Below are positions 34,280-47,799 of a stretch of 64,000 bases of DNA, piece after piece. The DNA comes from a virus. Position 1 is the stretch's first letter. Each line of letters begins with the position of its first letter. The stretch is taken from positions 10,022 to 74,021 of the IMG/VR virus record IMGVR_UViG_3300010375_000001. One strand, given 5' to 3'. Made by a program: the position numbers and the translations under genes. Below the pieces are notes generated by a model. It had not been told where the DNA came from. It worked only from the letters and a program-made list of their open reading frames with translations, and did not search any database.

Positions 34280-34343
34280 CACTCTTTACAAGCTCTACCG
34301 ACGAACCGCGTAGCTTGCACAAGGGGCGAGCCCTTGAAGAGTG
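34280..34343 (+). ncRNA. tRNA-mimic element 1
   Basis: CACTCTT/AAGAGTG + CAAGG-GGCGAGC-CCTTG. Confidence 0.6.
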
Positions 34344-34358
34344 CTAAAATTGACAACT

Positions 34359-34769
34359 ATGTTTACTCAACAAGAAAGGGACCTCATGCAGGCGGCTATA
34401 GCCTCACATCTACTTTACTTATACGATACTCGGGCTATGACTTTAGAACAAAAAGAAGCGGAACGTGATAAGGTGAGAGCGCTATCAGCAAAGATTGACG
34501 CAACCGCTAATAAGGGACCATATAAGCCGATTACGTTAGTCCTAGACCACATCGGATGCCTTCATATGTTTGCGGGCGATGTTCATCCAACTGGCCGGGA
34601 TCATCCGAAGGTTAATGGCCGCGAAGCGGTAACGTTTATCCAGCGGCAAGAGGACATTGAGGGTATAATGGAGTATCTAACAGATGACGAACAAGAGAAT
34701 TTAAGCGGTGGTAATCCGGTTCGTACAACGTACGTTCCGGATTACTATATCATTCCCGTTCAATCCTAA
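34359..34769 (+). CDS. Early hypothetical protein
   Basis: ATG after A-rich leader. Confidence 0.6.
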   Translation: MFTQQERDLMQAAIASHLLYLYDTRAMTLEQKEAERDKVRALSAKIDATANKGPYKPITLVLDHIGCLHMFAGDVHPTGRDHPKVNGREAVTFIQRQEDIEGIMEYLTDDEQENLSGGNPVRTTYVPDYYIIPVQS

Positions 34770-34818
34770 CCCCTCATTGCATAACGGCAATCTGCGTAGT
34801 TCGAGACTGCGCAGGGGT
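34769..34818 (+). ncRNA. tRNA-mimic element 2
   Basis: ACCCCT/AGGGGT + GCGTAG-TTCGAGA-CTGCGC; internal ATTGC/GCAAT hairpin. Confidence 0.65.
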
Positions 34819-34833
34819 GCTAAACTTACACAC

Positions 34834-35112
34834 ATGAAAAAGATAGACGGAACTTCCCCTAAGCGTAATAGGTTTACCAACCTTGAACAGGTCGCGCGGT
34901 TGCTTCTCAAAAGACTGATATCTTTCACCTATACACCTGCTTGTATTGTAGTCACTGATTCGGATAAGAGCGAAATGGCGTTTTACACAGCCACCTATGA
35001 TTTTGAAACCAAAGAAGTAGTATTAATGATGGGTGCAAGCTATATAGCGGAAAAGCATTACATAGAAATCAAGCATAGTGATGCGGTATTATACATTGAA
35101 CGCGCGAAGTAA
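34834..35112 (+). CDS. Early hypothetical protein
   Basis: ATG after A-rich leader. Confidence 0.55.
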   Translation: MKKIDGTSPKRNRFTNLEQVARLLLKRLISFTYTPACIVVTDSDKSEMAFYTATYDFETKEVVLMMGASYIAEKHYIEIKHSDAVLYIERAK

Positions 35113-35192
35113 GTCATTTCAGGGCTTCGATACTTAACACAGGGACCGCATGTCTATGCGGTCCTTTACTATTATAAACAACATTTAAATAT

Positions 35193-35315
35193 ATGGACGC
35201 ACTAAATGAGTTTATCCTAATCATCGCATCGGTTGCCGGGTTGGGCACGCTGATCTTTATGTATGGCTTCTTTAAGGACTGCGAAGAGTCTGACAACACT
35301 TCCCCGCGTGGTTAA
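35193..35315 (+). CDS. 40-aa single-TM microprotein (not in ORF track)
   Basis: MDALNEFILIIASVAGLGTLIFMYGFFKDCEESDNTSPRG. Confidence 0.55.
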   Translation: MDALNEFILIIASVAGLGTLIFMYGFFKDCEESDNTSPRG

Positions 35316-35350
35316 AGGCCACCGTTAGCGGTCAGCGCGCTAACGGGGAG
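35300..35350 (+). ncRNA. tRNA-mimic element 3
   Basis: TCCCCG/CGGGGA, D-like GTGG-TTAAAGG-CCAC, TTAGCG-GTCAGCG-CGCTAA. Confidence 0.55.
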
Positions 35351-35391
35351 CACTGCCTTACGGCAAGAATTCGAACTAAAAACAGATCATT

Positions 35392-35607
35392 ATGAAACAC
35401 TTCTTTCAAGTGGACAATGACCACGTAGATCGTGTTCGGGAGATTGCGATGAAAAGCGCGCTACACATTGGAATCAGTAAGGAATGGGATACAAAGACGG
35501 ATATGTATGTTACTAGTCTTCCCAATGAAGCCGATACGCTGATTAAGAGGCTTAAACGAAATGGCATTAGCGCGCGCATTTATAAGCGCATCGACTACGC
35601 GAACTAA
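35392..35607 (+). CDS. Early hypothetical protein
   Basis: Preceded by CGAACTAAAAACA. Confidence 0.6.
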   Translation: MKHFFQVDNDHVDRVREIAMKSALHIGISKEWDTKTDMYVTSLPNEADTLIKRLKRNGISARIYKRIDYAN

Positions 35608-35617
35608 AAACAACTAT

Positions 35618-35839
35618 ATGACAAAAGTTAAAACGAACGAGCAGCGCTTTCGCGCGCTGCTCAACGATTTGGGACCGTTTGGCGCGGCTATACTACGGGA
35701 GCGCATGATGAACATGGTACAGTATAATCGCGATGCCATTGAGAAAGACCCGGAGTCTTTCAACAATCCGCTCTTCAACCACACACACTATTCGGCATTG
35801 TGTGACAAGATTGAAAAGCACCTGGGTTTCGAAGAGTAA
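35618..35839 (+). CDS. Early hypothetical protein
   Basis: Preceded by CGAACTAAAAACAA. Confidence 0.6.
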   Translation: MTKVKTNEQRFRALLNDLGPFGAAILRERMMNMVQYNRDAIEKDPESFNNPLFNHTHYSALCDKIEKHLGFEE

Positions 35840-35846
35840 CCCGGCC

Positions 35847-35889
35847 ATCCCTTGGGTCAGGCCTATGCTGTTCGAATCAGCGAAGGGAG
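35847..35889 (+). ncRNA. tRNA-mimic element 4
   Basis: TCCCTT/AAGGGA + TGCTG-TTCGAAT-CAGCG. Confidence 0.7.
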
Positions 35890-35908
35890 CGAACTAAAAA
35901 CAAGATGT

Positions 35909-36001
35909 ATGTCCGATTTATTCATGTGGTTGCTGTTAGTCGGCTTCTATGCCGTGCTGATGCAGTTTCCCGGTTATAAACCTAAAAGACGTAAGGTATG
36001 A
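35909..36001 (+). CDS. 30-aa TM microprotein (not in ORF track)
   Basis: MSDLFMWLLLVGFYAVLMQFPGYKPKRRKV after the shared leader. Confidence 0.5.
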   Translation: MSDLFMWLLLVGFYAVLMQFPGYKPKRRKV

Positions 36002-36156
36002 GCTTGTATGTAGTGGAACTGGTAAACGGTGATATCGTTACCGTTTACGCGGATAGTGAGCAGGATGCAGCAGAGCAAGTGTAGGACACGGACCGCGTAG
36101 GCGGCGCAATGGACCGGTTAATGCCGGTCCTTTCTTTGTAACTAATATCTATTTAT

Positions 36157-36429
36157 ATGGAGAAGATTCTACTGATCGATGCGAACAGGGGTATTTATAT
36201 CCCGCAGGAGTTTGCCAAGGCTTACGGGGAGCAATTCACCGGAACTTCATTAGAAGAGGATATAGCGATACTTCTGGAAGGTCCCGACCATGCTGAATAC
36301 AATGAGGCAATGGACGAAATTCTCCTGAAGGGAGGGCTAATATTAGATGGGAAAAAGTACAGGATTGACCAGGACGGTGACTTATGGGCGGTCCCTGAAG
36401 GGTATGAAGAACCGGAAGAGGCCTCGTAA
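36157..36429 (+). CDS. Early acidic protein
   Basis: RGIYIPQEFA...QDGDLWA. Confidence 0.65.
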   Translation: MEKILLIDANRGIYIPQEFAKAYGEQFTGTSLEEDIAILLEGPDHAEYNEAMDEILLKGGLILDGKKYRIDQDGDLWAVPEGYEEPEEAS

Positions 36430-36495
36430 CCACCATCCCCGATCCCGTTTTGGACATTCAACGCATTTTAGAATATTAACGGAAAATCAATCAAC

Positions 36496-36684
36496 ATGAA
36501 AGTAATAACTATTACGGGGAACGTTCCCGGCAAGGTGATTTTTAACTTAGAAGGTTTAACACAATTGCAAATAGCGTCCCTCTATAATGCATTAGAGGAT
36601 GCTATTGCAAAAGAGCTATTCCATAATCCGACAAGGGGCGAATTGCTGAAACAGTTGCATGAAGCTATCGCCCCTTACTTATAG
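36496..36684 (+). CDS. Early hypothetical protein
   Basis: A-rich leader; stop abuts the hammerhead. Confidence 0.55.
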   Translation: MKVITITGNVPGKVIFNLEGLTQLQIASLYNALEDAIAKELFHNPTRGELLKQLHEAIAPYL

Positions 36685-36733
36685 GTTAACTGACGAGTCT
36701 TGAATAGACGAAAGGGGGCAACCCCTCTTAACC
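36684..36733 (+). ncRNA. Type I hammerhead ribozyme
   Basis: GGTTAA-CTGACGA-GTCT(TGAAT)AGAC-GAAA-GGGG(GCAA)CCCC-TC^TTAACC; complete core; predicted cut after C36727. Confidence 0.9.
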
Positions 36734-36771
36734 AAAAGACAGCCGCAGTCTATAACAGGCGGGCCAATGTT

Positions 36772-37431
36772 ATGAACAAGAAAAATTACCGGACCGTACG
36801 GACCAAGGTGTATCAATTTGATGCGCTGAGCGATAAGGCGAAGAAAAAAGCCATAGAGCAATGCCGCTACTTCAATGTTGATGGCGAGTGGTGGGAGTTT
36901 ATCTACGATGATTTCAAGCGGATTTGCGAAACCGTTGGCGTCGACGTTGATTTAAAGAAAACCCACTTCCGTTTCTCAAGTCAGGGGGACGGGGCTGCGT
37001 TTACAGCGGATGTTGATTTGTTCAAGCTGATCGACGGCATTAACGGGGAGGCATGGCGGCAAGAGGCGCCCAACTTGGACAAGGAAAATAACTTTACTCC
37101 TCCTCATTGCAGCGTAGATCGGCGGGTATTGGATTTGATCAAACGGGACTGGATTAGTTTCACGGTGAACCTTGAAGCGAAGGACCGGCCTTATCATACA
37201 AAGGCAGATATCGAGTACGATTACACTCAGGATTCGTGCGGGTCCTATGAGAACATTGAGAACCAGCTGGACTTATTATACCTATGGGTCAAAGACGTTG
37301 TCATCGAATTGAACCATTTGCTATATCGCATCCTAAAACGTGAATACGAATGGCGGACGAGCGATGAAGCGGTCATTGAAACGATCAAGGCCAACGAATA
37401 TGAGTTTCTGGCTGATGGCAAACGCTTTTAA
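36772..37431 (+). CDS. Conserved early phage protein
   Basis: VYQFDALSDKAK...SQGDGA...EYEWRTSDEAV; the track's start at 36700 lies inside the ribozyme. Confidence 0.65.
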   Translation: MNKKNYRTVRTKVYQFDALSDKAKKKAIEQCRYFNVDGEWWEFIYDDFKRICETVGVDVDLKKTHFRFSSQGDGAAFTADVDLFKLIDGINGEAWRQEAPNLDKENNFTPPHCSVDRRVLDLIKRDWISFTVNLEAKDRPYHTKADIEYDYTQDSCGSYENIENQLDLLYLWVKDVVIELNHLLYRILKREYEWRTSDEAVIETIKANEYEFLADGKRF

Positions 37432-37473
37432 CCCTACATGGTGCAACGCCCCGGATCGTCGCCGGGGTAGGTT
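37431..37473 (+). ncRNA. tRNA-mimic element 5
   Basis: ACCCTAC/GTAGGTT (6/7) + CCCGG-ATCGTCG-CCGGG. Confidence 0.7.
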
Positions 37474-37491
37474 CGAACTAAAAACAAGTGT

Positions 37492-37821
37492 ATGGAAACT
37501 CTACCGATGATCCCGAAGGATCAACTTATTTGCAAGAGTCATGCGGCATCGATGCTCATGATCTTTACGGAACGGCATTTCAAGGACCTCGTTTTGCACA
37601 TTTATGAACGGGCTAAGAAGAACCAGGAACGATGGCTTTATTACAACCTTGTGAATATCCTTCTTTACAGGGTGACGAACGAATGGGTCGATCAAATGGA
37701 GGCCGTTGAAATGGATGCTACCCTTATCCGCGAAATGTCCGTCAGCGATCAGGAGGAGTACGTAAGAGTGTATGAAAACAGGTATTCGCATTGGTTGCGA
37801 TATGGTGTCTTAATGCCATAA
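37492..37821 (+). CDS. Early hypothetical protein
   Basis: Shared leader. Confidence 0.6.
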   Translation: METLPMIPKDQLICKSHAASMLMIFTERHFKDLVLHIYERAKKNQERWLYYNLVNILLYRVTNEWVDQMEAVEMDATLIREMSVSDQEEYVRVYENRYSHWLRYGVLMP

Positions 37822-37863
37822 CCACGCTTGGAGCTTGCAAGGGATCGTTTCCCTTGCGTGGTT
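37820..37863 (+). ncRNA. tRNA-mimic element 6
   Basis: AACCACGC/GCGTGGTT + AAGGG-ATCGTTT-CCCTT; linker TTGGAGC. Confidence 0.75.
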
Positions 37864-37881
37864 CGAACTAAAAACAAGTGT

Positions 37882-38004
37882 ATGAAAAAGCAAAATGCTA
37901 CAGGTGTAAGCCTGTTTATCTTCACGGCGGTTGTTATGATCGGGTTTGCCCTGACTATTTATTCCATCAACGCTGCGTTGTGGGTGTATTCCCCGGGCCG
38001 GTAG
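37882..38004 (+). CDS. 40-aa TM microprotein (not in ORF track)
   Basis: MKKQNATGVSLFIFTAVVMIGFALTIYSINAALWVYSPGR after the shared leader. Confidence 0.6.
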   Translation: MKKQNATGVSLFIFTAVVMIGFALTIYSINAALWVYSPGR

Positions 38005-38088
38005 AGCGACTTCTACGATCGTTTAGTTTTATCCATGCGACCTCAATCGGTCGCTTTAAAGGACCGGGTTTCTACCCGGTCCACATTT

Positions 38089-38134
38089 TCCCTACGGATC
38101 ATAACGATGCCGTGCTATTCGATTAGGATAGGGA
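38089..38134 (+). ncRNA. tRNA-mimic element 7 (imperfect)
   Basis: TCCCTA/TAGGGA + CTA-TTCGAT-TAG. Confidence 0.5.
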
Positions 38135-38154
38135 CCGAACTAAAAACACATAAT

Positions 38155-38802
38155 ATGACACCCGAACAGTTCGAAAAGTACATTAGCATTAAGCTACAGG
38201 AAAGTAAGCTAACTCAAAAGCGACTCGAAGAAAATTGCGCATTATTTGTTGATGTGACAAAGATTGCCCTTGAGATAATGCTACACGCTGGCATATCAAA
38301 ACTTCACGCGCTAACGGCAATGTATGGTCCCTTTATGGATTCTAAGTGTGAAGGCGAGGTGAATTTTTGGTGGACAGGATACATCCAAATGTATGACAGC
38401 TGTAAAATCCGCTATTCTATTGAGCTTGCCCGGCAATGGGTTAACGGCAACCAATGGTGCGAGGTGGGCATGAAGTACCCGACCTTTGATAAGGCGAAGT
38501 TCGTAAAGCGCTTTAAGCTCCAATATGTCGGACTGTATCCGGCTGATGGCGTTGAGTATGAGGTTTGGGAGAATCCGGGCCGGACCATGATGTGGTCATG
38601 TAGTCCAGGGAGCTTCGGTAAGGGAGGATACGCGGGCCTTGTCTTCGATACGTTTGATAGCGCGTATCAGTTCGTACAGTGGTTTATGTCTTCGCCTACT
38701 CACTATGTGAAAGACATCGATGTCTTTCACAATGGACTGGGCGGCCTCGGTGTTGAGCAGTACAAAACCATCCGCGAACGAGGTTCAGTAAGTGCAAGCT
38801 AA
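38155..38802 (+). CDS. Early hypothetical protein
   Basis: Shared leader. Confidence 0.6.
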   Translation: MTPEQFEKYISIKLQESKLTQKRLEENCALFVDVTKIALEIMLHAGISKLHALTAMYGPFMDSKCEGEVNFWWTGYIQMYDSCKIRYSIELARQWVNGNQWCEVGMKYPTFDKAKFVKRFKLQYVGLYPADGVEYEVWENPGRTMMWSCSPGSFGKGGYAGLVFDTFDSAYQFVQWFMSSPTHYVKDIDVFHNGLGGLGVEQYKTIRERGSVSAS

Positions 38803-38809
38803 CCACCCA

Positions 38810-38863
38810 CAGCGGGACCGTGGTCCTTCGGGATCGGCGAGGCATTCGAAGTGCCGCCCGCTG
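38810..38863 (+). ncRNA. tRNA-mimic element 8
   Basis: CAGCGGG/CCCGCTG + GGCA-TTCGAAG-TGCC; internal UUCG hairpin. Confidence 0.65.
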
Positions 38864-38884
38864 CTAATCAAAAACAAGTACATT

Positions 38885-39211
38885 ATGGTGGATGCGTCAA
38901 ACTTTTATATTAGGACTGATTGCACGTGGTCTTATCTATACTATGGCAATAGAGCCTATGATCTTTTTTCAGAACTGAAAAACACTTCTGGTATCGAGAT
39001 TGTCCGTCCTTATGCAAGTTCAAGCTATTATGCGGTAGATGCTGCCAAAAATGAAGTATACCGGCTTTCGAACCATTGGGGGCGCGTTGCGTCCTGTTTT
39101 TGGTTTTTAGACAAAGACCTACCGATTTGGCAGCTACGCCAGCGATTGTATGTAATTGCGAAAGCAAATTTTTCTGATTTTATTCAAAAACCACACCCGG
39201 TTGATTATTAA
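38885..39211 (+). CDS. Early protein (RLSNHWGRVASCFW motif)
   Basis: Motif recurrent in Bacteroidota proteins (recall). Confidence 0.6.
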   Translation: MVDASNFYIRTDCTWSYLYYGNRAYDLFSELKNTSGIEIVRPYASSSYYAVDAAKNEVYRLSNHWGRVASCFWFLDKDLPIWQLRQRLYVIAKANFSDFIQKPHPVDY

Positions 39212-39236
39212 CTAAAATTTTCAAAACTCTAAAACT

Positions 39237-39539
39237 ATGGCACACACTAAAGGACGTTGGTCATCGTATGAAGATGCTGTTACCGCTAAAGTAAAGGCAA
39301 GGGGGCGTATCGATGTTTCTCAAGTTGATATCTGCCATATGTACGACGACGATGGCATACCGCGCAGCGAGCAGCGGGATAACAAGAAGCTGATCAAAGC
39401 TGCGCCGGATATGTATAGGGCTTTGCAAGAGATCATTGATGTAATTGAATCAGGTGACCGTAAGGTAATGCGAATCATTCTGCTGAAAGCGTTGATGTAT
39501 GCCAAGGCCGGGCTGCGCAAAGCTCCGAAGCGAAAGTAA
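39237..39539 (+). CDS. Early protein (HTKGRW...LIKAAPDM)
   Basis: Common phage HTPGPW/LIAAAPEL-type family. Confidence 0.65.
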   Translation: MAHTKGRWSSYEDAVTAKVKARGRIDVSQVDICHMYDDDGIPRSEQRDNKKLIKAAPDMYRALQEIIDVIESGDRKVMRIILLKALMYAKAGLRKAPKRK

Positions 39540-39543
39540 CTAA

Positions 39544-39589
39544 TAGCGGGCCGCACTACAGGTGCAGACATTCGCCATGTCACCCGCTG
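39544..39589 (+). ncRNA. tRNA-mimic element 9
   Basis: TAGCGGG/CCCGCTG + GACA-TTCGCCA-TGTC; D-like GCAC/GTGC. Confidence 0.65.
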
Positions 39590-39608
39590 CGAACTAAAAA
39601 CTAGTAAG

Positions 39609-39875
39609 ATGAAATCAACGCTTAGATTGAAAGTGTCTATCAAGGTAGGCACGGCAAAGGCGATGGAAAAATGGTATCGCGATTTATTCCATGCCTGTGA
39701 CAAAAAGAGGATTGATGTCGTCCGGGAGCTGGTAACGATGGAGGAGAACCAGCGGCGGGCCGGTGATTGGAATTGGGGGGCCGAATGTTTCGATGCCGAG
39801 TTCATTACGGAGAAAGACGATCTATTGCATCGGGCATTCCTGTTAGTGGAGGCCGCGAAGATGGGCAAGCAATAG
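39609..39875 (+). CDS. Early hypothetical protein
   Basis: Shared leader. Confidence 0.6.
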   Translation: MKSTLRLKVSIKVGTAKAMEKWYRDLFHACDKKRIDVVRELVTMEENQRRAGDWNWGAECFDAEFITEKDDLLHRAFLLVEAAKMGKQ

Positions 39876-39900
39876 CCCATTTTTAATCCCTACCCCCGTA

Positions 39901-39945
39901 CAGCGCGCTGACTTCGGTGTCTACCCTTCGATGCGGGGCGCGCTG
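39901..39945 (+). ncRNA. tRNA-mimic element 10
   Basis: CAGCGCGC/GCGCGCTG + CCC-TTCGATGC-GGG. Confidence 0.55.
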
Positions 39946-39961
39946 GCTAAAACACAACTAT

Positions 39962-40318
39962 ATGAGTTACGATCTTAAACTGAAAGACCCGCTAACAGGC
40001 GAAACCATCCTGTTAGCGGAGGACCATCACATAACAGGTGGTACATACGCACTTGGTGGAACAAAAGAAGCGTGGATTAATATTACTTATAACTACGGTG
40101 GTATTTTTCGTCAGGTGCTTGGAGAAAATGGTATCCGAACGATTTACGGCATGACCGGTGCGGAAGCGCTGCCGCTCTTGGAAAAGGCCATCTATCAGCT
40201 AAAGAGTGATATGACGGACAACTACTGGGATGCGACTGAAGGTAATGCCAAGAAAGCGCTGCTAAATGTAGCTGCTTTATCCGCTCTTGCTCCCCAAGGG
40301 ATATGGAGCGGAGACTAA
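39962..40318 (+). CDS. Conserved phage protein (NITYNY motif)
   Basis: GGTYALGGT.EAWINITYNY...YWDATEGNAK. Confidence 0.7.
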   Translation: MSYDLKLKDPLTGETILLAEDHHITGGTYALGGTKEAWINITYNYGGIFRQVLGENGIRTIYGMTGAEALPLLEKAIYQLKSDMTDNYWDATEGNAKKALLNVAALSALAPQGIWSGD

Positions 40319-40356
40319 CCGCCTGACGGCGAAATTTTATAACTAAACTTACCCCA

Positions 40357-40572
40357 ATGAACAAGAAAGATGGAAGGCCTTTCTATGAGGCCTGTTATGA
40401 TGGTATGATGTCAACGGTAATCGAAATAACGGCGGATGATGTAAAATATGAATATCATACGGTGGACAACTATGAGTTTTTTTGGAGCCGAGCCAAAGCG
40501 GTGAGAGCATTGCGGGCAAGACTGCGCCGGGAGATTCGTGATCTTAAGTATTGCTTAAAGCATCTTCATTAA
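40357..40572 (+). CDS. Early hypothetical protein
   Basis: A-rich leader. Confidence 0.5.
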   Translation: MNKKDGRPFYEACYDGMMSTVIEITADDVKYEYHTVDNYEFFWSRAKAVRALRARLRREIRDLKYCLKHLH

Positions 40573-40594
40573 TTAGTAAACTAAAAACAAGTAT

Positions 40595-40786
40595 ATGAAA
40601 ACATTCGATTGTACAGTAATTTACGCGAGGCCTTCGCATTGGGGAGGCATTGAATCAAAACGCTGGCAATGTCGCATTCATGCAATTGACGAGTCAGCAG
40701 CCGAATCAATTGCTCCATTGTTAGTTGCAGATAAGACCTACCTATATACAATAATGGTAGAGGTTGAAGTAACAGTTATTCTCTAA
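40595..40786 (+). CDS. Early hypothetical protein
   Basis: AACTAAAAACAAG leader. Confidence 0.55.
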   Translation: MKTFDCTVIYARPSHWGGIESKRWQCRIHAIDESAAESIAPLLVADKTYLYTIMVEVEVTVIL

Positions 40787-40835
40787 AACGCCACAGTGGA
40801 CCGCCACGCATGCAGCTCGTGCGCTGCATGGCGTT
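40787..40835 (+). ncRNA. tRNA-mimic element 11
   Basis: AACGCCA/TGGCGTT + TGCAG-CTCGTGCG-CTGCA; D-like GTGG/CCAC. Confidence 0.65.
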
Positions 40836-40854
40836 CGAACCAAATCAGTATATT

Positions 40855-41238
40855 ATGGGTTACGAAACAAGGCTGTACATTGGCCTATTGCATGAGAAGA
40901 TGCTCGCGACTGATCCGGGTCGGTACGTTAGAAAGTTAGCGATGATCGAAATCGATGCTCCTATTTTCACTGGTACTTTCATTGAAGAAAAGGACAAGGA
41001 AGTGCCGGTCTATTTGATTGCCGATGGCGATGCAAACCCGGATGAAATGCTTGCCGATGATAAGTATGGAAGTCAGCTCTATGCGATCAATCCGCAGAAA
41101 ATTCAGGCGAAGCTATTAATCTTTCAAGGACTGAAAGAATATCCGATGGCCTTTGCAGCTGCGCAATTCCTGCGTTCTCTTATCATGGACTACGCGAAGA
41201 CGAGATGGGAACTTGTTTGCGTCTTGTATGGACACTGA
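40855..41238 (+). CDS. Early hypothetical protein
   Basis: ATG after element 11. Confidence 0.6.
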   Translation: MGYETRLYIGLLHEKMLATDPGRYVRKLAMIEIDAPIFTGTFIEEKDKEVPVYLIADGDANPDEMLADDKYGSQLYAINPQKIQAKLLIFQGLKEYPMAFAAAQFLRSLIMDYAKTRWELVCVLYGH

Positions 41239-41239
41239 A

Positions 41240-41287
41240 AACGCCAAGCGGATGGGCCGCGCGCCGGGATCGTGTCCCGGTGGCGTT
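41240..41287 (+). ncRNA. tRNA-mimic element 12
   Basis: AACGCCA/TGGCGTT + CCGGG-ATCGTGT-CCCGG; D-like GCGG/CCGC. Confidence 0.75.
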
Positions 41288-41305
41288 CTAACTAAAAACA
41301 AGTAT

Positions 41306-41557
41306 ATGACTGATCTAAAGTTCGTCGTCCGCTTGGGAGTGATTAACCCCGAAACGGAGGAACTGCAATCCATCGATATTTACATGGATGCGGGTGGTGT
41401 AATGGTTGGATTCGACTCTATACCTATCGCCAATGGGGATAGGCTATATTCCCCCTATGATAAAAAGGAGGTAACGCTGGAAGGCCAGGAGGCCATTAAG
41501 CAGCCGCGCCGCGAGTCGAATGCAAAGAAATATTCATCACTGCTGAAGAAATTATAG
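41306..41557 (+). CDS. Early hypothetical protein
   Basis: AACTAAAAACAAG leader. Confidence 0.6.
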   Translation: MTDLKFVVRLGVINPETEELQSIDIYMDAGGVMVGFDSIPIANGDRLYSPYDKKEVTLEGQEAIKQPRRESNAKKYSSLLKKL

Positions 41558-41598
41558 TAATAACATCAAACGTTTCCGGACCGTAACCGGACCACAAG

Positions 41599-42015
41599 AT
41601 GAAACACACAATAACGTTGCATCGCGTCACAACGGAAGTAATAGAAGTTGAGATTGAGGCAAAAACAATCAAGGCGGCTATACAAAAGGCAGAGAAAACA
41701 GCATTTGCCGAAAACGCTTTTGAAACCAACAAACCGGAAGTCAATAGCATCGACTATTATGTCTGGACAGAGCAGAGGAATCGAATGCCGGAAATACTCA
41801 TTACCGTTGATGGTGGCATCATCGATGAAATTATATCTACCACGCGCAATATCAAAGTCTCAGTTATTGACGACGATGACGAAGGTCGCTCGCCGGGAGA
41901 AAGCAAAATCCCCTATTTCCAAGCGCAACCGGATAGTATCGTTACGTTCGACCATATTAAAGCGATGTTGGAAGAGGCGGAAGACGAGCAACTGAATGAG
42001 CAAGATGAAGAATAG
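41599..42015 (+). CDS. Early acidic protein
   Basis: ORF after a T-arm-only hairpin. Confidence 0.6.
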   Translation: MKHTITLHRVTTEVIEVEIEAKTIKAAIQKAEKTAFAENAFETNKPEVNSIDYYVWTEQRNRMPEILITVDGGIIDEIISTTRNIKVSVIDDDDEGRSPGESKIPYFQAQPDSIVTFDHIKAMLEEAEDEQLNEQDEE

Positions 42016-42022
42016 AAGCTTT

Positions 42023-42066
42023 AACCCTGCTTGGAGCTACGGCCCGGATCGATGCCGGGCGGGGTT
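42023..42066 (+). ncRNA. tRNA-mimic element 13
   Basis: AACCCTG/CGGGGTT + CCCGG-ATCGATG-CCGGG; linker CTTGGAGC. Confidence 0.7.
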
Positions 42067-42084
42067 CTAAAAATGTAGATCATT

Positions 42085-42483
42085 ATGAATACAGTAAAAC
42101 GAACAGAAAAAGGCTGGGCGGGTCATTTCATATGTTCAAGATGGTGTTTATTTCGCCGCCATACACTCCTGGAATATGGTGATATAGCGATTACCGTTAG
42201 CACGGTGGGTAACCATCTTTCATATGATGAGAAAATGCAGGACCTTGGAATTGGACGTTATTTCGAAACGATGGTTTTTCACTCTGAGCCCGTTACGGTG
42301 GACAACCATTGGAAAGATGCGGATGTGAGCAAGCAGATTGCCATTCGTTCCAGGAGCACTATCGGTGAGCCGTGGAAGGAACAGGAGGCCAATGATATGC
42401 ATGAACGAATTGTTCAGGAGTTTGTCGATGACTTGCTGGCCGGGAATCGGTTTGAAATACCTGCCGATGACTACGATGAATAA
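42085..42483 (+). CDS. Conserved phage protein (GWAGHFIC..CLFRRHTL)
   Basis: Motif-rich ORF. Confidence 0.65.
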   Translation: MNTVKRTEKGWAGHFICSRWCLFRRHTLLEYGDIAITVSTVGNHLSYDEKMQDLGIGRYFETMVFHSEPVTVDNHWKDADVSKQIAIRSRSTIGEPWKEQEANDMHERIVQEFVDDLLAGNRFEIPADDYDE

Positions 42484-42736
42484 TAAAAATAAACTGTTTG
42501 ATATGGACCATCGGTGGACCAAAGGAAAATACGCGGCCTACCTCAACAAGGAGTATAGCAAGTGTACTTTGGAGCAAATTCATAGAAAGTTCAGCTATCT
42601 CTATGATTCGGTGGCTGGGGAAAATGCGCTTACGAGGGCGTGGGTGGGAGGCAGGGTGGGCAGTTATGTCGCTGATCATGATCCGGAGGCCTTTAACAAT
42701 TGGTACGAAAAATGGGTTGCACAAAAAAAACGTTAG
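42476..42736 (+). CDS. Early hypothetical protein
   Basis: Overlapping ATG. Confidence 0.5.
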   Translation: MNNKNKLFDMDHRWTKGKYAAYLNKEYSKCTLEQIHRKFSYLYDSVAGENALTRAWVGGRVGSYVADHDPEAFNNWYEKWVAQKKR

Positions 42737-42757
42737 CGGATCGTAACCGCGTGAAAT

Positions 42758-43003
42758 ATGAGAAGTATTAAAGTAGTAGTTACAGTGCTAAAGCTAAACG
42801 CTCAAGTAGCCATCGCCCACCAGTATGATATGGAAGGGTCTCAAGAAGTATCATCGAAACGGAAAATTCGGCGAGCTATTTCGCGATATATAGGCAATTA
42901 TGGAGAGTCCTGTGTGGATGACCGCCAAACAGAGAGTAGCAATGAGGCATGGGCTTTTGCAGAAAAGGCCTATGCTAAATATTTTAATAGTTTTAAACGA
43001 TAA
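42758..43003 (+). CDS. Early hypothetical protein
   Basis: After a T-arm-only hairpin. Confidence 0.5.
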   Translation: MRSIKVVVTVLKLNAQVAIAHQYDMEGSQEVSSKRKIRRAISRYIGNYGESCVDDRQTESSNEAWAFAEKAYAKYFNSFKR

Positions 43004-43006
43004 CAC

Positions 43007-43717
43007 ATGAAACAAAAACTAATCATCGCCATCGCTTTTTTGTTAGGCCTTGGCGTATTACCCGGTTATCTTATTGCGAAGCGCATCGTCTCTATGCGCG
43101 GCAAGAGTGAAGCCGCAGCAAAGCATACTGTCACCGACAACCCGCAGTATAACGAGCAGCTGAAGATATGGGGCGCGTATTGGGGGCCCCGTTCGATTGT
43201 TATGTTGGGTGACTCGCATATGTACAAATGTCACTGGGATGAGTTATTAAGCCGGGACAGCATCGCCAACCAGGGCATTGGCAGCGATATAACGGAAGGA
43301 TATCTGGCCCGTATTGGGTACGTTTTCGATGTGAAGCCCCGGATTTGTTTTATCGAGGGCGGGGGCAATGATATCGAGTATAAGATTGCGCCTGCGGAGA
43401 TCGTGGCCAATATCCAGCGGATCGTGGATACGTTGAAGCCGAAGGGCATTATCTGCGTGCTAACGACCGTTCCGTATGAGCTGAGCACGTTAGCCGGAGC
43501 GCAGCAATACAACGGGGCTATCGACGAGCTGAATGCACGTGTCAGGATGTATGCCTACAAAAACGGGCTGGACTACATCGATCTGAACGGGCTAACGGCA
43601 CGCGACGGAGCGCTCAACCCGGATGAGGCGCAGAATGACGGCGCACATCTCACCGCAGCCGCGTACGTGAATTGGAAGCTGGCAATGGAAAAGATTTTGA
43701 AAAAGTATAAATTGTAA
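43007..43717 (+). CDS. Membrane-anchored SGNH/GDSL esterase
   Basis: LGDSH, NQGIG, GGNDI, DGAH; N-terminal TM. Confidence 0.88.
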   Translation: MKQKLIIAIAFLLGLGVLPGYLIAKRIVSMRGKSEAAAKHTVTDNPQYNEQLKIWGAYWGPRSIVMLGDSHMYKCHWDELLSRDSIANQGIGSDITEGYLARIGYVFDVKPRICFIEGGGNDIEYKIAPAEIVANIQRIVDTLKPKGIICVLTTVPYELSTLAGAQQYNGAIDELNARVRMYAYKNGLDYIDLNGLTARDGALNPDEAQNDGAHLTAAAYVNWKLAMEKILKKYKL

Positions 43718-43719
43718 CA

Positions 43720-43974
43720 ATGGCTATGGTAATTACCCCATATCAGGGGATAAACGATGACTTTCTGGAACACCGGTTTGCGCGATGCATCAATTTATTT
43801 TTCGAAGGCAAACGCGAAGAATCTTTCGATGTCTTTCAACAGATGGATAAAAAAACACACGCTACATTTTTCGTATGCCTGGGCATAGCCATGCAAATGA
43901 ATAGTGAGAAGATGACCGGCATGTCGGCGGGAGAGGCGAATGAACTTTTTAAATATTATTTGGATAAAATTTAA
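43720..43974 (+). CDS. Hypothetical protein
   Basis: ORF in operon. Confidence 0.5.
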   Translation: MAMVITPYQGINDDFLEHRFARCINLFFEGKREESFDVFQQMDKKTHATFFVCLGIAMQMNSEKMTGMSAGEANELFKYYLDKI

Positions 43975-43980
43975 ACGTAA

Positions 43981-44023
43981 ACCGCGTGGTCTGGCCTATC
44001 CGGGATCGTAACCTGGACGCGGG
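43981..44023 (+). ncRNA. tRNA-mimic element 14
   Basis: CCGCGT/ACGCGG + CCGGG-ATCGTAA-CCTGG. Confidence 0.7.
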
Positions 44024-44051
44024 CAATCATTCTATAACCAATTTACCCATT

Positions 44052-45692
44052 ATGGCTACTCGAATTTTACCAACGCCAGACGAATTGGAGCAGGCGTTGC
44101 TTGCCCATATTTTGTCGCCTCCCGTTATCCGGATTGCCGTTATAGCTGCCACGCTTATGATAACCAATCAGGAGTTCCATAAGATATGGATGAGTCGTCA
44201 CACAACGAAGCCACACGATTGGTATATGGAAAAAAGGATGGAGGCAGCAGCTAAGCTGCTATTGGAAGGCAATACCATTGACGAAACAGCCCGCATCCTC
44301 GGTTATGCGAGTGTGGGCGGATTGCTTGTGCCATTCCGTACGCGATTCGGCAAATCGCCTACGGAATATATTGCTGAACATAGAGAGGCAGAGTCTTTAA
44401 TTAAGCATCGGGCCAAGGTAGTGGAAATGTCGAAGGTTGTGGCTATTAATGCGCGGCGCATCCGATGCGAAAAAAACTGGACGCAAGCTAAAGTAGCCAA
44501 AGCATTGGGCGTAGTCGCTAGCAAGTATACGCTACGAGAAAGTGGGGAAATGCTTTTTAGTCGCGAGCAGATCGAACGGCTTGCTAAAGCCTTGGAGGTA
44601 ACATCGGCCGACTTGCTGGAAGGTTTCGAAATTAACCAAAACAATAACCTTCAAATTGATTCTATGGCTGAAATGTCACTAGGCGTTGCGATAGGTAAGA
44701 ACCTACGGCGCATTCGCAAAGAGAAACAACTTACACTTAAAGACCTGGAAGACCTCACCGATATTGAGGCGTACAAACTGGATTATATGGAGGGAGGGGG
44801 GCATAAATTTAATAGGGTAATGATCGAGAAGCTGGCGATGGCTCTTGGTGTACCTCCCTCTGATTTGACGGAAGGGGCCGATCCTTCTCGCGATATCGCC
44901 CAGTTATACGAGACGTATAAAGGGCTATCTGTGGCTGACATTCGCCTTGTCGAAGATAGTGACCAGGAGGCCGACTTTGACCCAGAGCAGTTAGCAAAAG
45001 ATACCAGGAAAATGCTCGCGAGCGAAGAGAAAAGGAGTGTCCGACAAGTTATTCGGCCGGTGCCGAAGGAAACGGAGGAGCCCGACCTGGGCGCGGAAGA
45101 AGAAACGCCAGCACAGGCCAAAGAAGAGCCGGTAGCGCCTCCAGCGGAAACAGCCAGCCAGCCAACCGACCCCGGATCGGCGGCACAACTGTTAATCGAG
45201 TATACCAAGCAAACGCCACACCTTCAGGATATGGTAGAAAAGCTGTACAAGGCACGGCTGACAGATAAGATAACAGACCTGGCGTTATATGTGCAGCGCA
45301 AGCTGCTGCCTACGGTGATAGTAGCGTATGTATCCGATGAGGATAACAAAGTCAAGGCCGTTGAACGGGTTCGAACGATGAGCGAGGCGGAGAAGTTTAC
45401 CTATCTCCAATTTTGCGCACAAGGGTATGACACCTGGAAGGCGGCGTTGTTTCCGGAAGAGGAGCTGTCCCTGGGTGTGCTGATCGCGGCCAACACGGAG
45501 GCGGCGCTGGTGGCGGCGTTCGAGCTGGATAAACGCCGCGCCCTGGCCGACCTGCTACTGCCACTTATCAGATCCTCCTCCAGCCCTAGGGGAGTAGATA
45601 TGGGGCTGCTATCCATGGCGGTAGGAGAGTGGATAGAGGACCTGACCAAGGTACAGCAGGCGATTACGGAATATCTGGAAACAACCAAGTAA
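44052..45692 (+). CDS. AraC-HTH + two XRE-HTH fusion regulator
   Basis: RMEAAAKLL...FGKSPTEY; WTQAKVAKALG; LTLKDLEDLT. Confidence 0.75.
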   Translation: MATRILPTPDELEQALLAHILSPPVIRIAVIAATLMITNQEFHKIWMSRHTTKPHDWYMEKRMEAAAKLLLEGNTIDETARILGYASVGGLLVPFRTRFGKSPTEYIAEHREAESLIKHRAKVVEMSKVVAINARRIRCEKNWTQAKVAKALGVVASKYTLRESGEMLFSREQIERLAKALEVTSADLLEGFEINQNNNLQIDSMAEMSLGVAIGKNLRRIRKEKQLTLKDLEDLTDIEAYKLDYMEGGGHKFNRVMIEKLAMALGVPPSDLTEGADPSRDIAQLYETYKGLSVADIRLVEDSDQEADFDPEQLAKDTRKMLASEEKRSVRQVIRPVPKETEEPDLGAEEETPAQAKEEPVAPPAETASQPTDPGSAAQLLIEYTKQTPHLQDMVEKLYKARLTDKITDLALYVQRKLLPTVIVAYVSDEDNKVKAVERVRTMSEAEKFTYLQFCAQGYDTWKAALFPEEELSLGVLIAANTEAALVAAFELDKRRALADLLLPLIRSSSSPRGVDMGLLSMAVGEWIEDLTKVQQAITEYLETTK

Positions 45693-45703
45693 ACGAATGA
45701 CTC

Positions 45704-46147
45704 ATGAGTAATTATGATGTACTGAAGGGTGCTATTATAAATATGTTTACCCATTGGACGAATGGAAACAAGAATGCTTGCTACCGGGAATATTTTTCTT
45801 TAAATGTTGAGCAGCGGAAGATCATAGAGGAAACGCTAAGAAAAGGCTCCCGAGTATATCCAAGCCGAGCCCAGCGCAAGGATGCGCAGCAAATATTGTC
45901 AATGATAAAAAAGAACACTGATAAGGAGGCTCAATTGCTGACACACACGCTAAAGGAGCTTATGCAGTATTGGTTCTTAAGCAGTAGGGAGATATTTTAT
46001 AGCCACTATCTTGCGTTGGGGGAATTCGAAAAGCGTACAATAATAGAAGCCATTGAGGAGGTATTTGGTACAGATGAAAACGCGGAATTCAGACAGGCGG
46101 CGATAGACATACCGAAGTATATCAAGGAGAGGGCTTCGGGATTGTAA
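45704..46147 (+). CDS. Hypothetical protein (internal duplication)
   Basis: Two similar halves (W..G.K...Y..Y.SL..E.RKII.E). Confidence 0.55.
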   Translation: MSNYDVLKGAIINMFTHWTNGNKNACYREYFSLNVEQRKIIEETLRKGSRVYPSRAQRKDAQQILSMIKKNTDKEAQLLTHTLKELMQYWFLSSREIFYSHYLALGEFEKRTIIEAIEEVFGTDENAEFRQAAIDIPKYIKERASGL

Positions 46148-46173
46148 ACCAAGTAATTTTTAAAAACCAGCAA

Positions 46174-46812
46174 TTGATGGATCAATTAAAAAATGTTAGT
46201 AACGAAATTCCAGAGCGTTTCCCCTTTGAAAAGAGGAACTGGAAAGATTTAGATATGGATAAAATGATGGTCGAATATCAAGAAAAAGAACGATTACAGG
46301 CTCTCGGTATGTACGCCCATGTGAATTGGCAATGGGTAAGGCCGTTGGCCAAGTGGCTGGGCGAGCGAAGGGTATTAGAGGTTATGGCTGGCGCTGGATG
46401 GTTGGCAAAGGCGCTCAGGGAATGCGGCATATCGGTGGTTGCAACCGACGACTTTTCCTGGGGTGAGAAGAAAGGCTGGCAACTACAGACGGAAGTGGAA
46501 CAGCTAGAGGCATCTGCTGCCATTCTTAAATACGGGGAAGAGTGTGATATTCTTCTTATCTCTTGGCCTTGGATGGATGCTGATGCATACAACGCTCTCA
46601 CTAAATGGAACGAAGTCCATCCCGATGGATTAATCATCTATATAGGGGAGTATGGAGGAGGATGTACAGCCGATGATGACTTTCACGACCATTTTGAGAT
46701 GGTGAACGACAGCGGATTCGGAGAAGTGCAGGCTATCTATCGGCATTGGGATGGAATGCACGACCGCATTTACTTGGGAAAGTATTCATCTTTAAACGTT
46801 AGCGGATCGTAA
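46174..46812 (+). CDS. SAM-dependent methyltransferase-like protein
   Basis: VLEVMAGAGW, LLISWP, YIGE.GGCTA. Confidence 0.7.
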   Translation: MMDQLKNVSNEIPERFPFEKRNWKDLDMDKMMVEYQEKERLQALGMYAHVNWQWVRPLAKWLGERRVLEVMAGAGWLAKALRECGISVVATDDFSWGEKKGWQLQTEVEQLEASAAILKYGEECDILLISWPWMDADAYNALTKWNEVHPDGLIIYIGEYGGGCTADDDFHDHFEMVNDSGFGEVQAIYRHWDGMHDRIYLGKYSSLNVSGS

Positions 46813-46825
46813 CCGCGTATAGCTT

Positions 46826-47269
46826 ATGAGATCAATTTTAGTTTTTGCATTCAGCGCTATTCTGGTTGGGTCAGCGAATCTACCCCATCATCTTCAGGCC
46901 ACTAAGCGGATCGATTGTGTAGCCGACGATACGAGTGCGCGGCACGGTCACGATGTCGAGACAGAAAGTTCGTTAACCATTCTTATTGATCCAGCTGAAA
47001 AGCATCTTCGCTTGGCCGATAGCAGCTATAGGATTGATAGTGTCGTCCATCCTGGAAATGACTATTGGGTGTTGTTTACGAAGAAAGATCCAGCCGCGCC
47101 AACTAGTAAGGGCGACACGTTGGATTGGCGCTTTGATATCCGAACCGTTCCAACGAATCCGGGACACTTCCAGGTTGTTGTCAGAGGGGCGCACTGGATA
47201 ATCTTCAATGGCGAAAGCGTGTACAACACAGGTATCCTATATTACTTCGACTGCGTATCGAAAGATTAA
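46826..47269 (+). CDS. Secreted hypothetical protein
   Basis: Signal peptide. Confidence 0.55.
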   Translation: MRSILVFAFSAILVGSANLPHHLQATKRIDCVADDTSARHGHDVETESSLTILIDPAEKHLRLADSSYRIDSVVHPGNDYWVLFTKKDPAAPTSKGDTLDWRFDIRTVPTNPGHFQVVVRGAHWIIFNGESVYNTGILYYFDCVSKD

Positions 47270-47304
47270 TCTTAACGTTTCCGGACCGCAACCGGATCAA
47301 CAAT

Positions 47305-47799
47305 ATGCAATATGATAAGATGCTTGTTGGACAAGTAAAAATCTGCAATGATTTGCTGGAAGCAATGGGTCGAAAAGAGCGACTAAAATTAAGCGATGAC
47401 AAGAAGGGCAAATACGTAGTCATTGGCTATGACCAGCGAGGCAACGAAGTCCAAGCCGTAGGTGGTACAAGGAACGAGATGGAAGCATACCTGGGCGGCT
47501 TTACAGCGTGCGCCTCTATGTTTAAGGATGTGCGCTTTTTTCTATCGGAGGAAGATTTAGAGAAAATGGGGTTCACTGAAGTGAGCCAGTATTACGAGCG
47601 AATTGCTACTGAAAACGTCCATGATCCAGAGGTGGAGGGCGAGGCGGAAAAATCTTCGGAAAGAGTGCGGGGGCTATTTCAGGCTATGGACCTGGAGCAG
47701 CAAAGCGACTGCTTGCTCTATCTGTTCGATAGGGCCGATAAAACATCTGATATAATGTATCGCAGTGCTTTGGCGTGTTGCATTACGCACTTATATTAA
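47305..47799 (+). CDS. Hypothetical protein
   Basis: After a T-arm-only hairpin. Confidence 0.55.
   Translation: MQYDKMLVGQVKICNDLLEAMGRKERLKLSDDKKGKYVVIGYDQRGNEVQAVGGTRNEMEAYLGGFTACASMFKDVRFFLSEEDLEKMGFTEVSQYYERIATENVHDPEVEGEAEKSSERVRGLFQAMDLEQQSDCLLYLFDRADKTSDIMYRSALACCITHLY

What the first reader, a model, noticed from the sequence alone, without database searches (positions are those of the whole stretch)
36684..36733. Hammerhead ribozyme occupying a punctuation slot
It has a complete CUGACGA/GAAA/UC core with three perfect stems and begins at a stop codon, in a junction that lacks a tRNA mimic. Phage hammerheads are known. Its positional equivalence independently supports the idea that the mimics are cleavage signals.
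Basis: partly seen in the sequence, partly recalled or inferred. Interest (0 to 1): 0.7.

Follow-up and report, generated by a model that had tools for sequence, protein, structure and literature searches.

The report
Hammerhead ribozyme between phage early genes
A genuine self-cutting hammerhead RNA sits between two small early genes of an uncultured soil phage, in the kind of gap that elsewhere in the operon holds miniature tRNA look-alikes; other phages mix or swap the two elements at matching junctions, so both probably cut one long message into single-gene pieces.

Summary
Window 36684-36733 (+) is a complete type I hammerhead: consensus core, three perfect stems, cleavage after C36727. 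A descriptor finds it once in the window and never in 300 shuffles. It belongs to a large phage subfamily (A-GGUUAA...UC^UUAACC-AA, more than 120 IMG/VR contigs) whose three stems covary (98.5% paired, 12 of 15 pairs with double changes). All members tested score below Rfam's cut-off.

It fills an 87-nt gap between two co-directional early genes, starting on the upstream stop codon.

About 15 anticodon-less mini-tRNAs fill other gaps of the same operon. Similar mini-tRNAs co-occur with this hammerhead subfamily on the same strand in at least 12 other phage contigs (23 model hits in 0.98 Mb against 1 in 1.55 Mb of control loci). Orthologous genes carry a hammerhead in one phage and a mini-tRNA in another (L196/L247; window gene against L057 and L229).

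Self-cleavage and any cutting at the mini-tRNAs are inferred, not shown; no RNA data exist.

The ribozyme itself is an ordinary new member of a known kind, and this scan has already noted many phage junction hammerheads on other DNA. Its interchange with mini-tRNAs appears undescribed.

The parts
36684..36733 (+). Type I hammerhead ribozyme, whole motif (50 nt)
   Evidence: R1 covariance model scores it at 76.8 bits.
36684..36689 (+). Stem I, 5' strand GGUUAA. Its first G is the last base of the upstream TAG stop. A36683 just upstream is the conserved flanking A.
   Evidence: The 5' flank is A in 97 of 99 subfamily members.
36690..36696 (+). Catalytic core strand C3-U4-G5-A6-C7-G8-A9
36697..36709 (+). 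Stem II (GUCU/AGAC) with loop UGAAU. G10.1-C11.1 closes the core.
   Evidence: The U-NNAAU-A loop pattern recurs in the subfamily.
36710..36712 (+). Core G12-A13-A14
36713..36726 (+). Stem III (A15.1-GGGG / CCCC-U16.1) closed by GCAA
   Evidence: Stem III covaries in relatives.
36727..36728 (+). Predicted scissile bond: C17 (36727) then U1.1 (36728)
   Evidence: Follows from the hammerhead numbering rule (cleavage 3' of H17). Not tested.
36728..36733 (+). Stem I, 3' strand UUAACC, followed by the conserved AA (36734-35). It would be the 5' end of the downstream message after cleavage.
   Evidence: The 3' flank is AA in 78 of 99 members.
36496..36684 (+). Upstream ORF (62 aa, no family match). 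Its TAG overlaps stem I.
   Evidence: That it is a real gene is inferred from its spacing in the gene block only.
36741..36763 (+). Leader segment (AGCCGCA..UAUAACAGGCGGG) conserved with relative L103. It lies between the ribozyme and the start codon.
36772..37431 (+). Downstream gene (219 aa, phrog_5162, unknown function). The leader after cleavage would be 44 nt.
37430..37473 (+). Mini-tRNA (acceptor-like stem plus T-arm-like hairpin) at the 3' junction of the same gene. It starts in that gene's TAA stop.
34280..48186 (+). Early operon that carries about 15 mini-tRNAs at other junctions (context)

Best explanation
This is an active, cis-cleaving type I hammerhead transcribed as part of the + strand early polycistronic RNA. 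Once stem I's 3' strand has been made, the RNA folds and cuts itself between C36727 and U36728. The upstream message then ends 43 nt after its stop codon, in two hairpins (stems II and III) with a 2',3'-cyclic phosphate. The downstream message for the 219-aa gene begins with 5'-OH-UUAACCAA and has a 44-nt leader. In this phage the hammerhead is one of two interchangeable junction modules. The other is the anticodon-less mini-tRNA, presumably cut by host RNase P and/or RNase Z. Together they divide the operon into gene-sized units. Shown: the motif, its conservation and covariation, its junction geometry, and its co-occurrence and exchange with mini-tRNAs in other phages. Inferred: that it cleaves, that the mimics are cleaved, and what cleavage does to expression.
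For: The core is canonical and all three stems are perfect. The descriptor gives 0 hits in 300 shuffles.

Fourteen IMG/VR contigs share the exact 24-nt core plus stem II. They carry 5 different stem I and at least 8 different stem III sequences, all paired, while their flanking proteins are unrelated. On the structural alignment, 98.5% of cells are paired, 12 of 15 pairs change on both sides, 0 of 500 shuffles reach this, and slid controls give 30-38%.

The subfamily with the same stem I occurs in more than 120 viral contigs and in 6 genome contigs, among them Pedobacter, Niabella and Paraflavitalea. In 74 of 85 members an upstream ORF stops in or at the 5' part of the ribozyme; 15 of them end in TAG on base 1, as here. 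In 81 of 85 an ORF starts a median of 16 nt after it.

The mini-tRNA model R2 gives 23 hits in 0.98 Mb of hammerhead loci against 1 in 1.55 Mb of control loci. The strict descriptor gives 12 sense and 0 antisense hits.

Mixed arrays exist: L284 runs HH-HH-mini-mini-mini-...-HH, and L274, L193 and L251 are also mixed. Orthologue swaps are seen in L196/L247 and in the window gene against L057 and L229.

Perreault et al. 2011 (PMC3088659) showed that clustered prophage hammerheads cleave native polycistronic RNAs in vitro and in vivo.
Against: There is no RNA evidence of any kind: no RNA run was listed. The Rfam score is below the gathering cut-off. Stem I is only 6 bp, and the tertiary contact needed for fast cleavage at cellular Mg2+ is not identified; it is only suggested by the conserved flanking A/AA and loop II. 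In a 151-nt context the minimum-free-energy fold is a competing structure, although it is not better than shuffles. There is only one hammerhead in this genome. The closest relative of the downstream gene lacks it, so it is dispensable for that gene. A terminator-like hairpin at 36111-36130 leaves the extent of the transcript open. The association with mini-tRNAs could reflect a shared phage lineage or host rather than a shared function. R2 recognises only one of the window's own mimics clearly (37820, 20.8 bits).
Confidence: 0.72

Rival explanations
1. The hammerhead is active but serves the downstream gene specifically rather than general punctuation. It would set the 5' end, and so the stability or translation, of the phrog_5162 message.
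For: Homologues of this gene have hammerheads next to them in unrelated phages. L057 has one on each side of the gene, L229 has one downstream, and L055 and L176 have one within about 1-1.5 kb. The leader between ribozyme and ATG is conserved with L103.
Against: Only a handful of about 160 loci that encode homologues have a hammerhead, and the closest ones (33-47% identity) have none. The same ribozyme subfamily precedes many unrelated small genes.
Confidence: 0.15
2. The hammerhead and the mini-tRNAs are equivalent only as compact structured spacers. They might act as 3'-end protectors against exonucleases, translational insulators or decoys. On this reading the mini-tRNAs are not cleavage signals, so the hammerhead says nothing about them.
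For: Equivalence is shown only by position. No 3' CCA follows the mimics, and their first bases are not the usual G1. Many junctions of the operon carry neither element, or only a single hairpin.
Against: The mimics keep precisely the acceptor stem stacked on a T-arm with a 7-nt T-loop-like loop. From general knowledge, this is the part of tRNA that RNase P and RNase Z recognise. The element they alternate with is a dedicated RNA cutter. The distance from element end to ATG is similar for both: about 15-21 nt for most mimics in the window (three lie further, at about 29-41 nt) and a median of 16 nt for the hammerhead subfamily.
Confidence: 0.25
3. The hammerhead is a neutral or selfish insertion, a mobile RNA module or decaying relic with no role for the phage.
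For: It behaves as a discrete indel of about 44-50 nt relative to L103. It is single-copy here. The same module appears in otherwise unrelated phages.
Against: There are no core or stem defects. Purifying selection is visible as compensatory changes across the family. Its placement is strict: sense strand, on the stop codon, a fixed distance before the next ATG.
Confidence: 0.08
4. Chance resemblance to the hammerhead consensus.
For: The Rfam E-value for the whole window is 1.2.
Against: There are 0 descriptor hits in 300 shuffles. The exact 24-mer is found in 14 other contigs, each time with complete covarying stems.
Confidence: 0.01

Closest known systems
Type I hammerhead ribozymes (Rfam RF00163, clan CL00010)
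   Same: The core is identical (CUGANGA, GAA, A15.1-U16.1, C17). There are three helices with stem I open, and G10.1-C11.1 closes stem II. The match covers the full length of the model.
   Different: It scores 21.8 bits, below the gathering score of 34. None of eight further loci carrying members reaches the cut-off either. Stem I is a fixed 6 bp with conserved unpaired A (5') and AA (3') in place of the internal loop of the Schistosoma or satellite type I ribozymes; that comparison rests on my own knowledge.
Clustered hammerheads flanking single genes in prophages (Perreault et al. 2011, PMC3088659)
   Same: It is intergenic, on the sense strand, within blocks of small phage genes. It is proposed to cut long phage transcripts into gene-length messages. 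Relatives of this ribozyme form such clusters: L057 has 2, L228 has 5, and L274 and L284 have 3 each.
   Different: This genome has a single hammerhead, and the neighbouring junctions carry mini-tRNAs instead. The 2011 clusters are not described as sharing their slots with tRNA-like elements.
HHphage of haloviruses HF1/HF2 (described in PMC3088659)
   Same: That hammerhead lies just upstream (13 nt) of the start codon of an early gene, and the mapped 5' end of the transcript coincides with the cleavage site.
   Different: It is an archaeal virus. The ribozyme is a structural variant that needs high Mg2+, and it lies at the head of the transcript rather than between cistrons.
tRNA punctuation of mitochondrial transcripts and 't-elements' of plant mitochondria (my own knowledge, not tested here)
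   Same: tRNAs or tRNA-like stem-loops between cistrons act as RNase P/Z cleavage marks.
   Different: That system is organellar, and its marks are (mostly) functional tRNAs. No self-cleaving ribozyme is known to share the slots there.
Engineered ribozyme-flanked and tRNA-flanked guide-RNA arrays (my own knowledge)
   Same: Hammerheads and tRNAs are used interchangeably to release units from one transcript.
   Different: It is a synthetic design. Here the same interchange appears in natural phage operons.

Membership tests
Hammerhead ribozyme, type I | Conserved core C3 U4 G5 A6 N7 G8 A9 / G12 A13 A14 / A15.1-U16.1 / H17 | tested here: met
   CUGACGA, GAA, A36713-U36726, C36727.
Hammerhead ribozyme, type I | Three helices around the core with no mispair next to the core; stem I open, stems II and III closed | tested here: met
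   stems of 6, 4 and 5 bp, all Watson-Crick.
Hammerhead ribozyme, type I | Helices supported by compensatory changes in homologues | tested here: met
   12 of 15 pairs change on both sides, 98.5% paired, 0 of 500 shuffles; 85 of 99 subfamily members have well-formed stems II and III with many different sequences.
Hammerhead ribozyme, type I | Score at or above Rfam's gathering threshold for RF00163 | tested here: not met
   21.8 bits against 34. This is a curation threshold, not a structural criterion. The whole phage subfamily falls below it.
Hammerhead ribozyme, type I | Tertiary contact between stem I and loop II that gives fast cleavage at cellular Mg2+ | tested here: inconclusive
   flanking A (97 of 99), AA (78 of 99) and the loop II pattern U-NNAAU-A are conserved, which suggests a contact. 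No structure or kinetics are available.
Hammerhead ribozyme, type I | Site-specific self-cleavage giving a 2',3'-cyclic phosphate and a 5'-OH | not testable with these tools
   No RNA run was listed for this DNA.
Gene-flanking hammerhead clusters of phages and prophages (Perreault 2011) | Intergenic, sense strand, within a co-directional phage gene block | tested here: met
Gene-flanking hammerhead clusters of phages and prophages (Perreault 2011) | Several hammerheads close together, bracketing genes | tested here: not met
   This genome has one hammerhead only. The feature is met in relatives of the ribozyme (L057, L193, L228, L274, L284).
tRNA-type punctuation (RNase P/Z marks between cistrons), considered for the operon as a whole | tRNA or tRNA-like fold (acceptor stem stacked on a T-arm) at cistron borders | tested here: met
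   for the window. for other phages (97.5% paired, all 13 pairs change on both sides). The hammerhead itself is not such a fold.
tRNA-type punctuation (RNase P/Z marks between cistrons), considered for the operon as a whole | Endonucleolytic cleavage at the borders of the element | not testable with these tools
   No RNA data are available. Inference only.

The most novel reading that the evidence does not exclude
Hammerheads and anticodon-less mini-tRNAs are two interchangeable punctuation marks of phage polycistronic messages. One cuts itself; the other borrows the host's RNase P/Z. This would be a bacterial-virus counterpart of mitochondrial tRNA punctuation, and it would give bacterial and phage hammerheads a defined job: releasing single-gene mRNAs with short leaders.
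Probability: 0.5. Interest if true: 0.8.

Novelty: new variant of a known kind. Interest (0 to 1): 0.55.

Why it matters
What the many hammerheads of bacteria and phages do has been open since they were found in 2011. In this window one sits in a slot that is otherwise filled by tRNA top-half mimics. Other phages mix the two elements in one operon, or exchange them in front of or behind orthologous genes. If the mimics are RNase P/Z substrates, the two elements define a single function, cutting operon RNA at cistron borders. That function can be tested directly with simple cleavage assays and end-specific RNA-seq.

The work also shows that a large hammerhead subfamily (more than 120 viral contigs) is missed by Rfam's threshold. 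Taken alone, the ribozyme is an ordinary new member of a known class.

Tried and rejected
- **Phage database:** blastn of 35500-38500 against the phage collection gave no match.
- **RNA runs:** no RNA holder was listed. Laying contigs of the source sample showed only the source contig, plus a second 110-nt contig carrying another hammerhead with the same stem I and core but a different stem III.
- **The look-up of encoding contigs:** The contigs of the closer homologues P0002-P0008 (47-57% identity) could therefore not be read.
- **Searches for relatives of this phage:** the 546-aa operon protein gave none. The leader motif YGAACTAAAAACAAGTRTATG gave none in IMG/VR. The exact 24-mer gave none in GTDB genomes.
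- **Function of the 219-aa gene:** Pfam, NCBIfam, PDB sequence search and Foldseek against PDB all gave nothing. Atlas neighbours are unnamed or automatically named 'antitoxin'.
- **Alignments and descriptors:** MAFFT alignments of the mimics (A3, A7-A10) were not structurally consistent and were not used for statistics. The loose mini-tRNA descriptor was too noisy, at about 4-5 hits per 100 kb on either strand. It was replaced by a strict descriptor and by model R2.
- **Trans-acting ribozyme:** the idea that this hammerhead cuts the repeated leader motif in trans was rejected, because stems II and III are closed loops and only stem I is open.
- **L193/L236:** this apparent swap was rejected. 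The hammerhead in L236 lies one small gene further upstream.
- **L118:** a hairpin upstream of its homologue looks like stem III but is more simply read as a terminator.
- **Promoter scan:** no Bacteroidota-type promoter (TTTG..TAnnTTTG) was found near the junction.

Full report
**The motif**

Window 36684-36733 (+) reads stem I GGUUAA, core CUGACGA, stem II GUCU-UGAAU-AGAC, GAA, stem III AGGGG-GCAA-CCCCU, C17 (36727) and stem I UUAACC. Every position of the hammerhead core is consensus. The pairs next to the core (A36689-U36728, G36697-C36709, A36713-U36726) are standard. The 50-mer's minimum-free-energy fold is the hammerhead fold. Rfam's type I model aligns over its full length, but at 21.8 bits against a gathering score of 34. 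That is E = 0.011 for 601 nt and 1.2 for the whole window, so Rfam alone proves nothing. A type I descriptor I wrote finds this single site in the window and none in 300 dinucleotide shuffles. It is the only hammerhead in the 74-kb virus record, which has direct terminal repeats and comes from a rhizosphere metagenome.

**Conservation**

The exact 24 nt of core plus stem II occur in 14 other IMG/VR contigs. Each carries a complete hammerhead, with five different stem I and at least eight different stem III sequences, all paired. The proteins around them are unrelated to this phage's. I built a covariance model from six of them (R1). It also recovered more divergent copies in L057 and L055. On the resulting 14-sequence alignment:
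- 98.5% of cells pair;
- 12 of 15 pairs change on both sides;
- 0 of 500 shuffles reach this, and slid controls give 30-38%.

The alignment is fitted to the model, so these counts lean towards the structure. A second contig from the source sample holds yet another copy, with the same stem I and core but a compensated stem III. None of eight loci tested reaches Rfam's cut-off.

**The subfamily**

It also hit six genome contigs, among them Pedobacter and Niabella MAGs and the Paraflavitalea speifideaquila chromosome. That fits a Bacteroidota host, as do the leaders in the window, which are A-rich and lack a Shine-Dalgarno sequence (my reading). Of 99 distinct copies:
- 85 have good stems II and III with many different sequences;
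- the base before stem I is A in 97;
- the two bases after stem I are AA in 78;
- loop II follows U-NNAAU-A.

This hints at a tertiary contact but does not show one. The geometry is stereotyped. In 74 of 85 copies an ORF of at least 40 aa stops in or at the 5' part of the ribozyme; 15 of them end in TAG on base 1, exactly as here. In 81 of 85 an ORF starts a median of 16 nt after it. In the window's own sequence, stem I, the core and loop II supply stop codons in all three frames within the first 24 nt, so the module terminates whatever reads into it.

**Context in the window**

The ribozyme fills an 87-nt gap between ORF 36496-36684 (62 aa) and the 219-aa gene 36772-37431 (phrog_5162, function unknown). 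Both lie in a + strand block of about 33 small genes. The minus-strand ORF and the TTG-started ORF that overlap the motif are not supported, because homologues of the 219-aa protein begin at the ATG at 36772.

**The 'tRNA mimics'**

I checked these because the interpretation rests on them. About 15 elements lie between 34280 and 48186. Each has:
- a 6-8 bp closing stem;
- a short linker or small hairpin, often containing GG;
- a 4-7 bp hairpin with a 7-nt loop, mostly WUCGNNN, stacked directly on the closing stem.

This is the acceptor/T-arm half of a tRNA without an anticodon arm. Most start at or within a few bases of a stop codon. They usually end 15-21 nt before the next ATG, although three lie further away, at about 29-41 nt. 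A strict descriptor finds 7 in the operon, all on the + strand. Its eighth window hit, at 53444, matches the roughly one hit per window that shuffles give. Loop positions 1 and 5 read U..A or mostly A..U. I noted this covariation by eye.

**Equivalence of the two elements**

- **Geometry in the window.** Both elements begin on the stop codon, and the gaps are of similar size (87 nt against 60-86 nt). The 219-aa gene has the hammerhead at its 5' junction and a mini-tRNA (37430-37473) at its 3' junction.
- **Co-occurrence elsewhere.** A strict mini-tRNA descriptor gives 12 sense and 0 antisense hits in 0.75 Mb of loci fetched by the hammerhead pattern. It gives 0 sense and 1 antisense in 1.9 Mb of control loci, which are phage or mobile-element regions encoding phrog_5162 homologues. 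A covariance model of the mini-tRNA (R2) gives 23 hits in 0.98 Mb against 1 in 1.55 Mb. Their stems covary: 97.5% paired, and all 13 pairs change on both sides. Every mini-tRNA lies on the hammerhead's strand, 0.2-2.3 kb away where I measured it.
- **Mixed arrays.** L284 runs HH-gene-HH-gene-mini-gene-mini-gene-mini-...-HH. L274 has three hammerheads and then a mini-tRNA. L251 has one hammerhead and then four mini-tRNAs. In L197 a 69-aa gene is flanked by a mini-tRNA and a hammerhead.
- **Swaps at orthologous junctions.** A 507-aa gene (55% identity over its full length) is preceded by a hammerhead in L196 and by a mini-tRNA in L247. The window's 219-aa gene is followed by a mini-tRNA, whereas its homologues in L057 and L229 are followed by a hammerhead. 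L057 has a hammerhead on both sides of the gene.

Caveats: the control loci come from different phages, so lineage or host may explain part of the association. R2 recognises only one of the window's own mimics clearly (37820, 20.8 bits; 42023 is marginal). The link between the window's mimics and those of other phages is therefore mainly architectural. The linker CUUGGAGC shared by 37820, 42023 and L193, and the acceptor AACCACG shared by 37820 and L274, bridge the two sets.

**Presence and absence**

The closest relative I could read is L103 (47% identity in the 219-aa protein). It keeps the leader AGCCGCA..UAUAACAGGCGGG before the ATG, but its upstream gene's stop is followed directly by that leader. 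The ribozyme is therefore a discrete module of about 44-50 nt that is present here and absent there. Homologues at 33-42% identity have neither element.

**Mechanism**

This part is inferred.
1. During transcription of the early RNA the ribozyme folds as soon as 36733 is made. The only stronger competitor fold needs sequence up to about 36764, and it is not better than shuffles.
2. It cuts after C36727.
3. The upstream message keeps stems II and III and a cyclic phosphate at its 3' end.
4. The 6-bp stem I melts and frees a downstream message with a 5'-OH and a 44-nt leader.

At the other junctions the mini-tRNAs would be cut by RNase P and/or RNase Z. The tRNA top half is the known recognition unit of those enzymes (my own knowledge). 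That would give leaders of similar length.

**Comparison and novelty**

Hammerheads between phage genes, and the idea that they cut long phage transcripts into gene-length mRNAs, date from Perreault et al. 2011 (PMC3088659). This scan has already noted many such cases on other DNA. The ribozyme is therefore a new member of a known kind. I did not find any description of hammerheads sharing and exchanging junction slots with tRNA-like elements in the paper library. The library is incomplete, so this is not proof of novelty.

**Limits**

The host is not identified. The upstream 62-aa ORF is unverified.

Noticed in passing
window 15717-15788 (-) and 15792-15863 (-): The only tRNA call in the window (Rfam 45.2 bits) is read by ARAGORN as anticodon UUA ('tRNA-Stop'). 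Its anticodon stem can pair so as to leave only a 5-nt loop, or a 7-nt loop with A where U33 should be. A second, weak tRNA-like match (22.7 bits) lies directly upstream.
   Followed up: partly
window 34280-48186 (+): In the T-arm-like loops of the mini-tRNAs, positions 1 and 5 covary: UUCGA in five elements, AUCGU in four. This is reminiscent of the 54-58 pair of a true T-loop.
   Followed up: partly
window 41568-41592, 42728-42752, 46794-46818, 47273-47297 (+): Short junctions without a mini-tRNA carry a lone hairpin (GCGGAUCGUAACCGC or CCGGACCGYAACCGG) with the same kind of loop. Two copies are identical 25-mers.
   Followed up: no
window 36111-36137 (+): A terminator-like hairpin (GGACCGG..CCGGUCC followed by UUUCUUUG) lies about 550 nt upstream of the ribozyme. 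It may divide the operon into transcription units.
   Followed up: no
window 36670-36676 with 36758-36764 (+): Upstream CGCCCCU can pair with downstream AGGCGGG. In a 151-nt fold this competes with the hammerhead fold, but it is not better than shuffles.
   Followed up: partly
L057 9896-9946 and 10558-10610; second paralogue at 11719-12297: In a phage with strong Shine-Dalgarno sites, the phrog_5162 homologue is bracketed by two type I hammerheads. Each starts on a stop codon and ends about 25 nt before the next ATG.
   Followed up: yes
L228 (five copies in 1.7 kb), L234 (four), L191, L199, L249 (three each): These loci hold dense arrays of the GGUUAA-type hammerhead, about one per small gene.
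   Followed up: no
L012 11261-11471 (+): A group I intron (Rfam 102 bits) lies about 4.5 kb from that contig's hammerhead.
   Followed up: no
L107, L110-L114, L117, L121, L125, L136: On many metagenome contigs, some of them 120-890 kb long and so probably chromosomal mobile elements, the phrog_5162 homologue is followed about 4-5 kb later by a homologue (48-58% identity) of window ORF 15245-15766 (-). The two genes lie far apart in this phage.
   Followed up: no
L251 2450-4279 (+): Four consecutive junctions carry mini-tRNAs, three of them followed by CUAAUCAAAAACAA-like leaders. These closely resemble the leader after the window's mimic at 38810-38863.
   Followed up: partly
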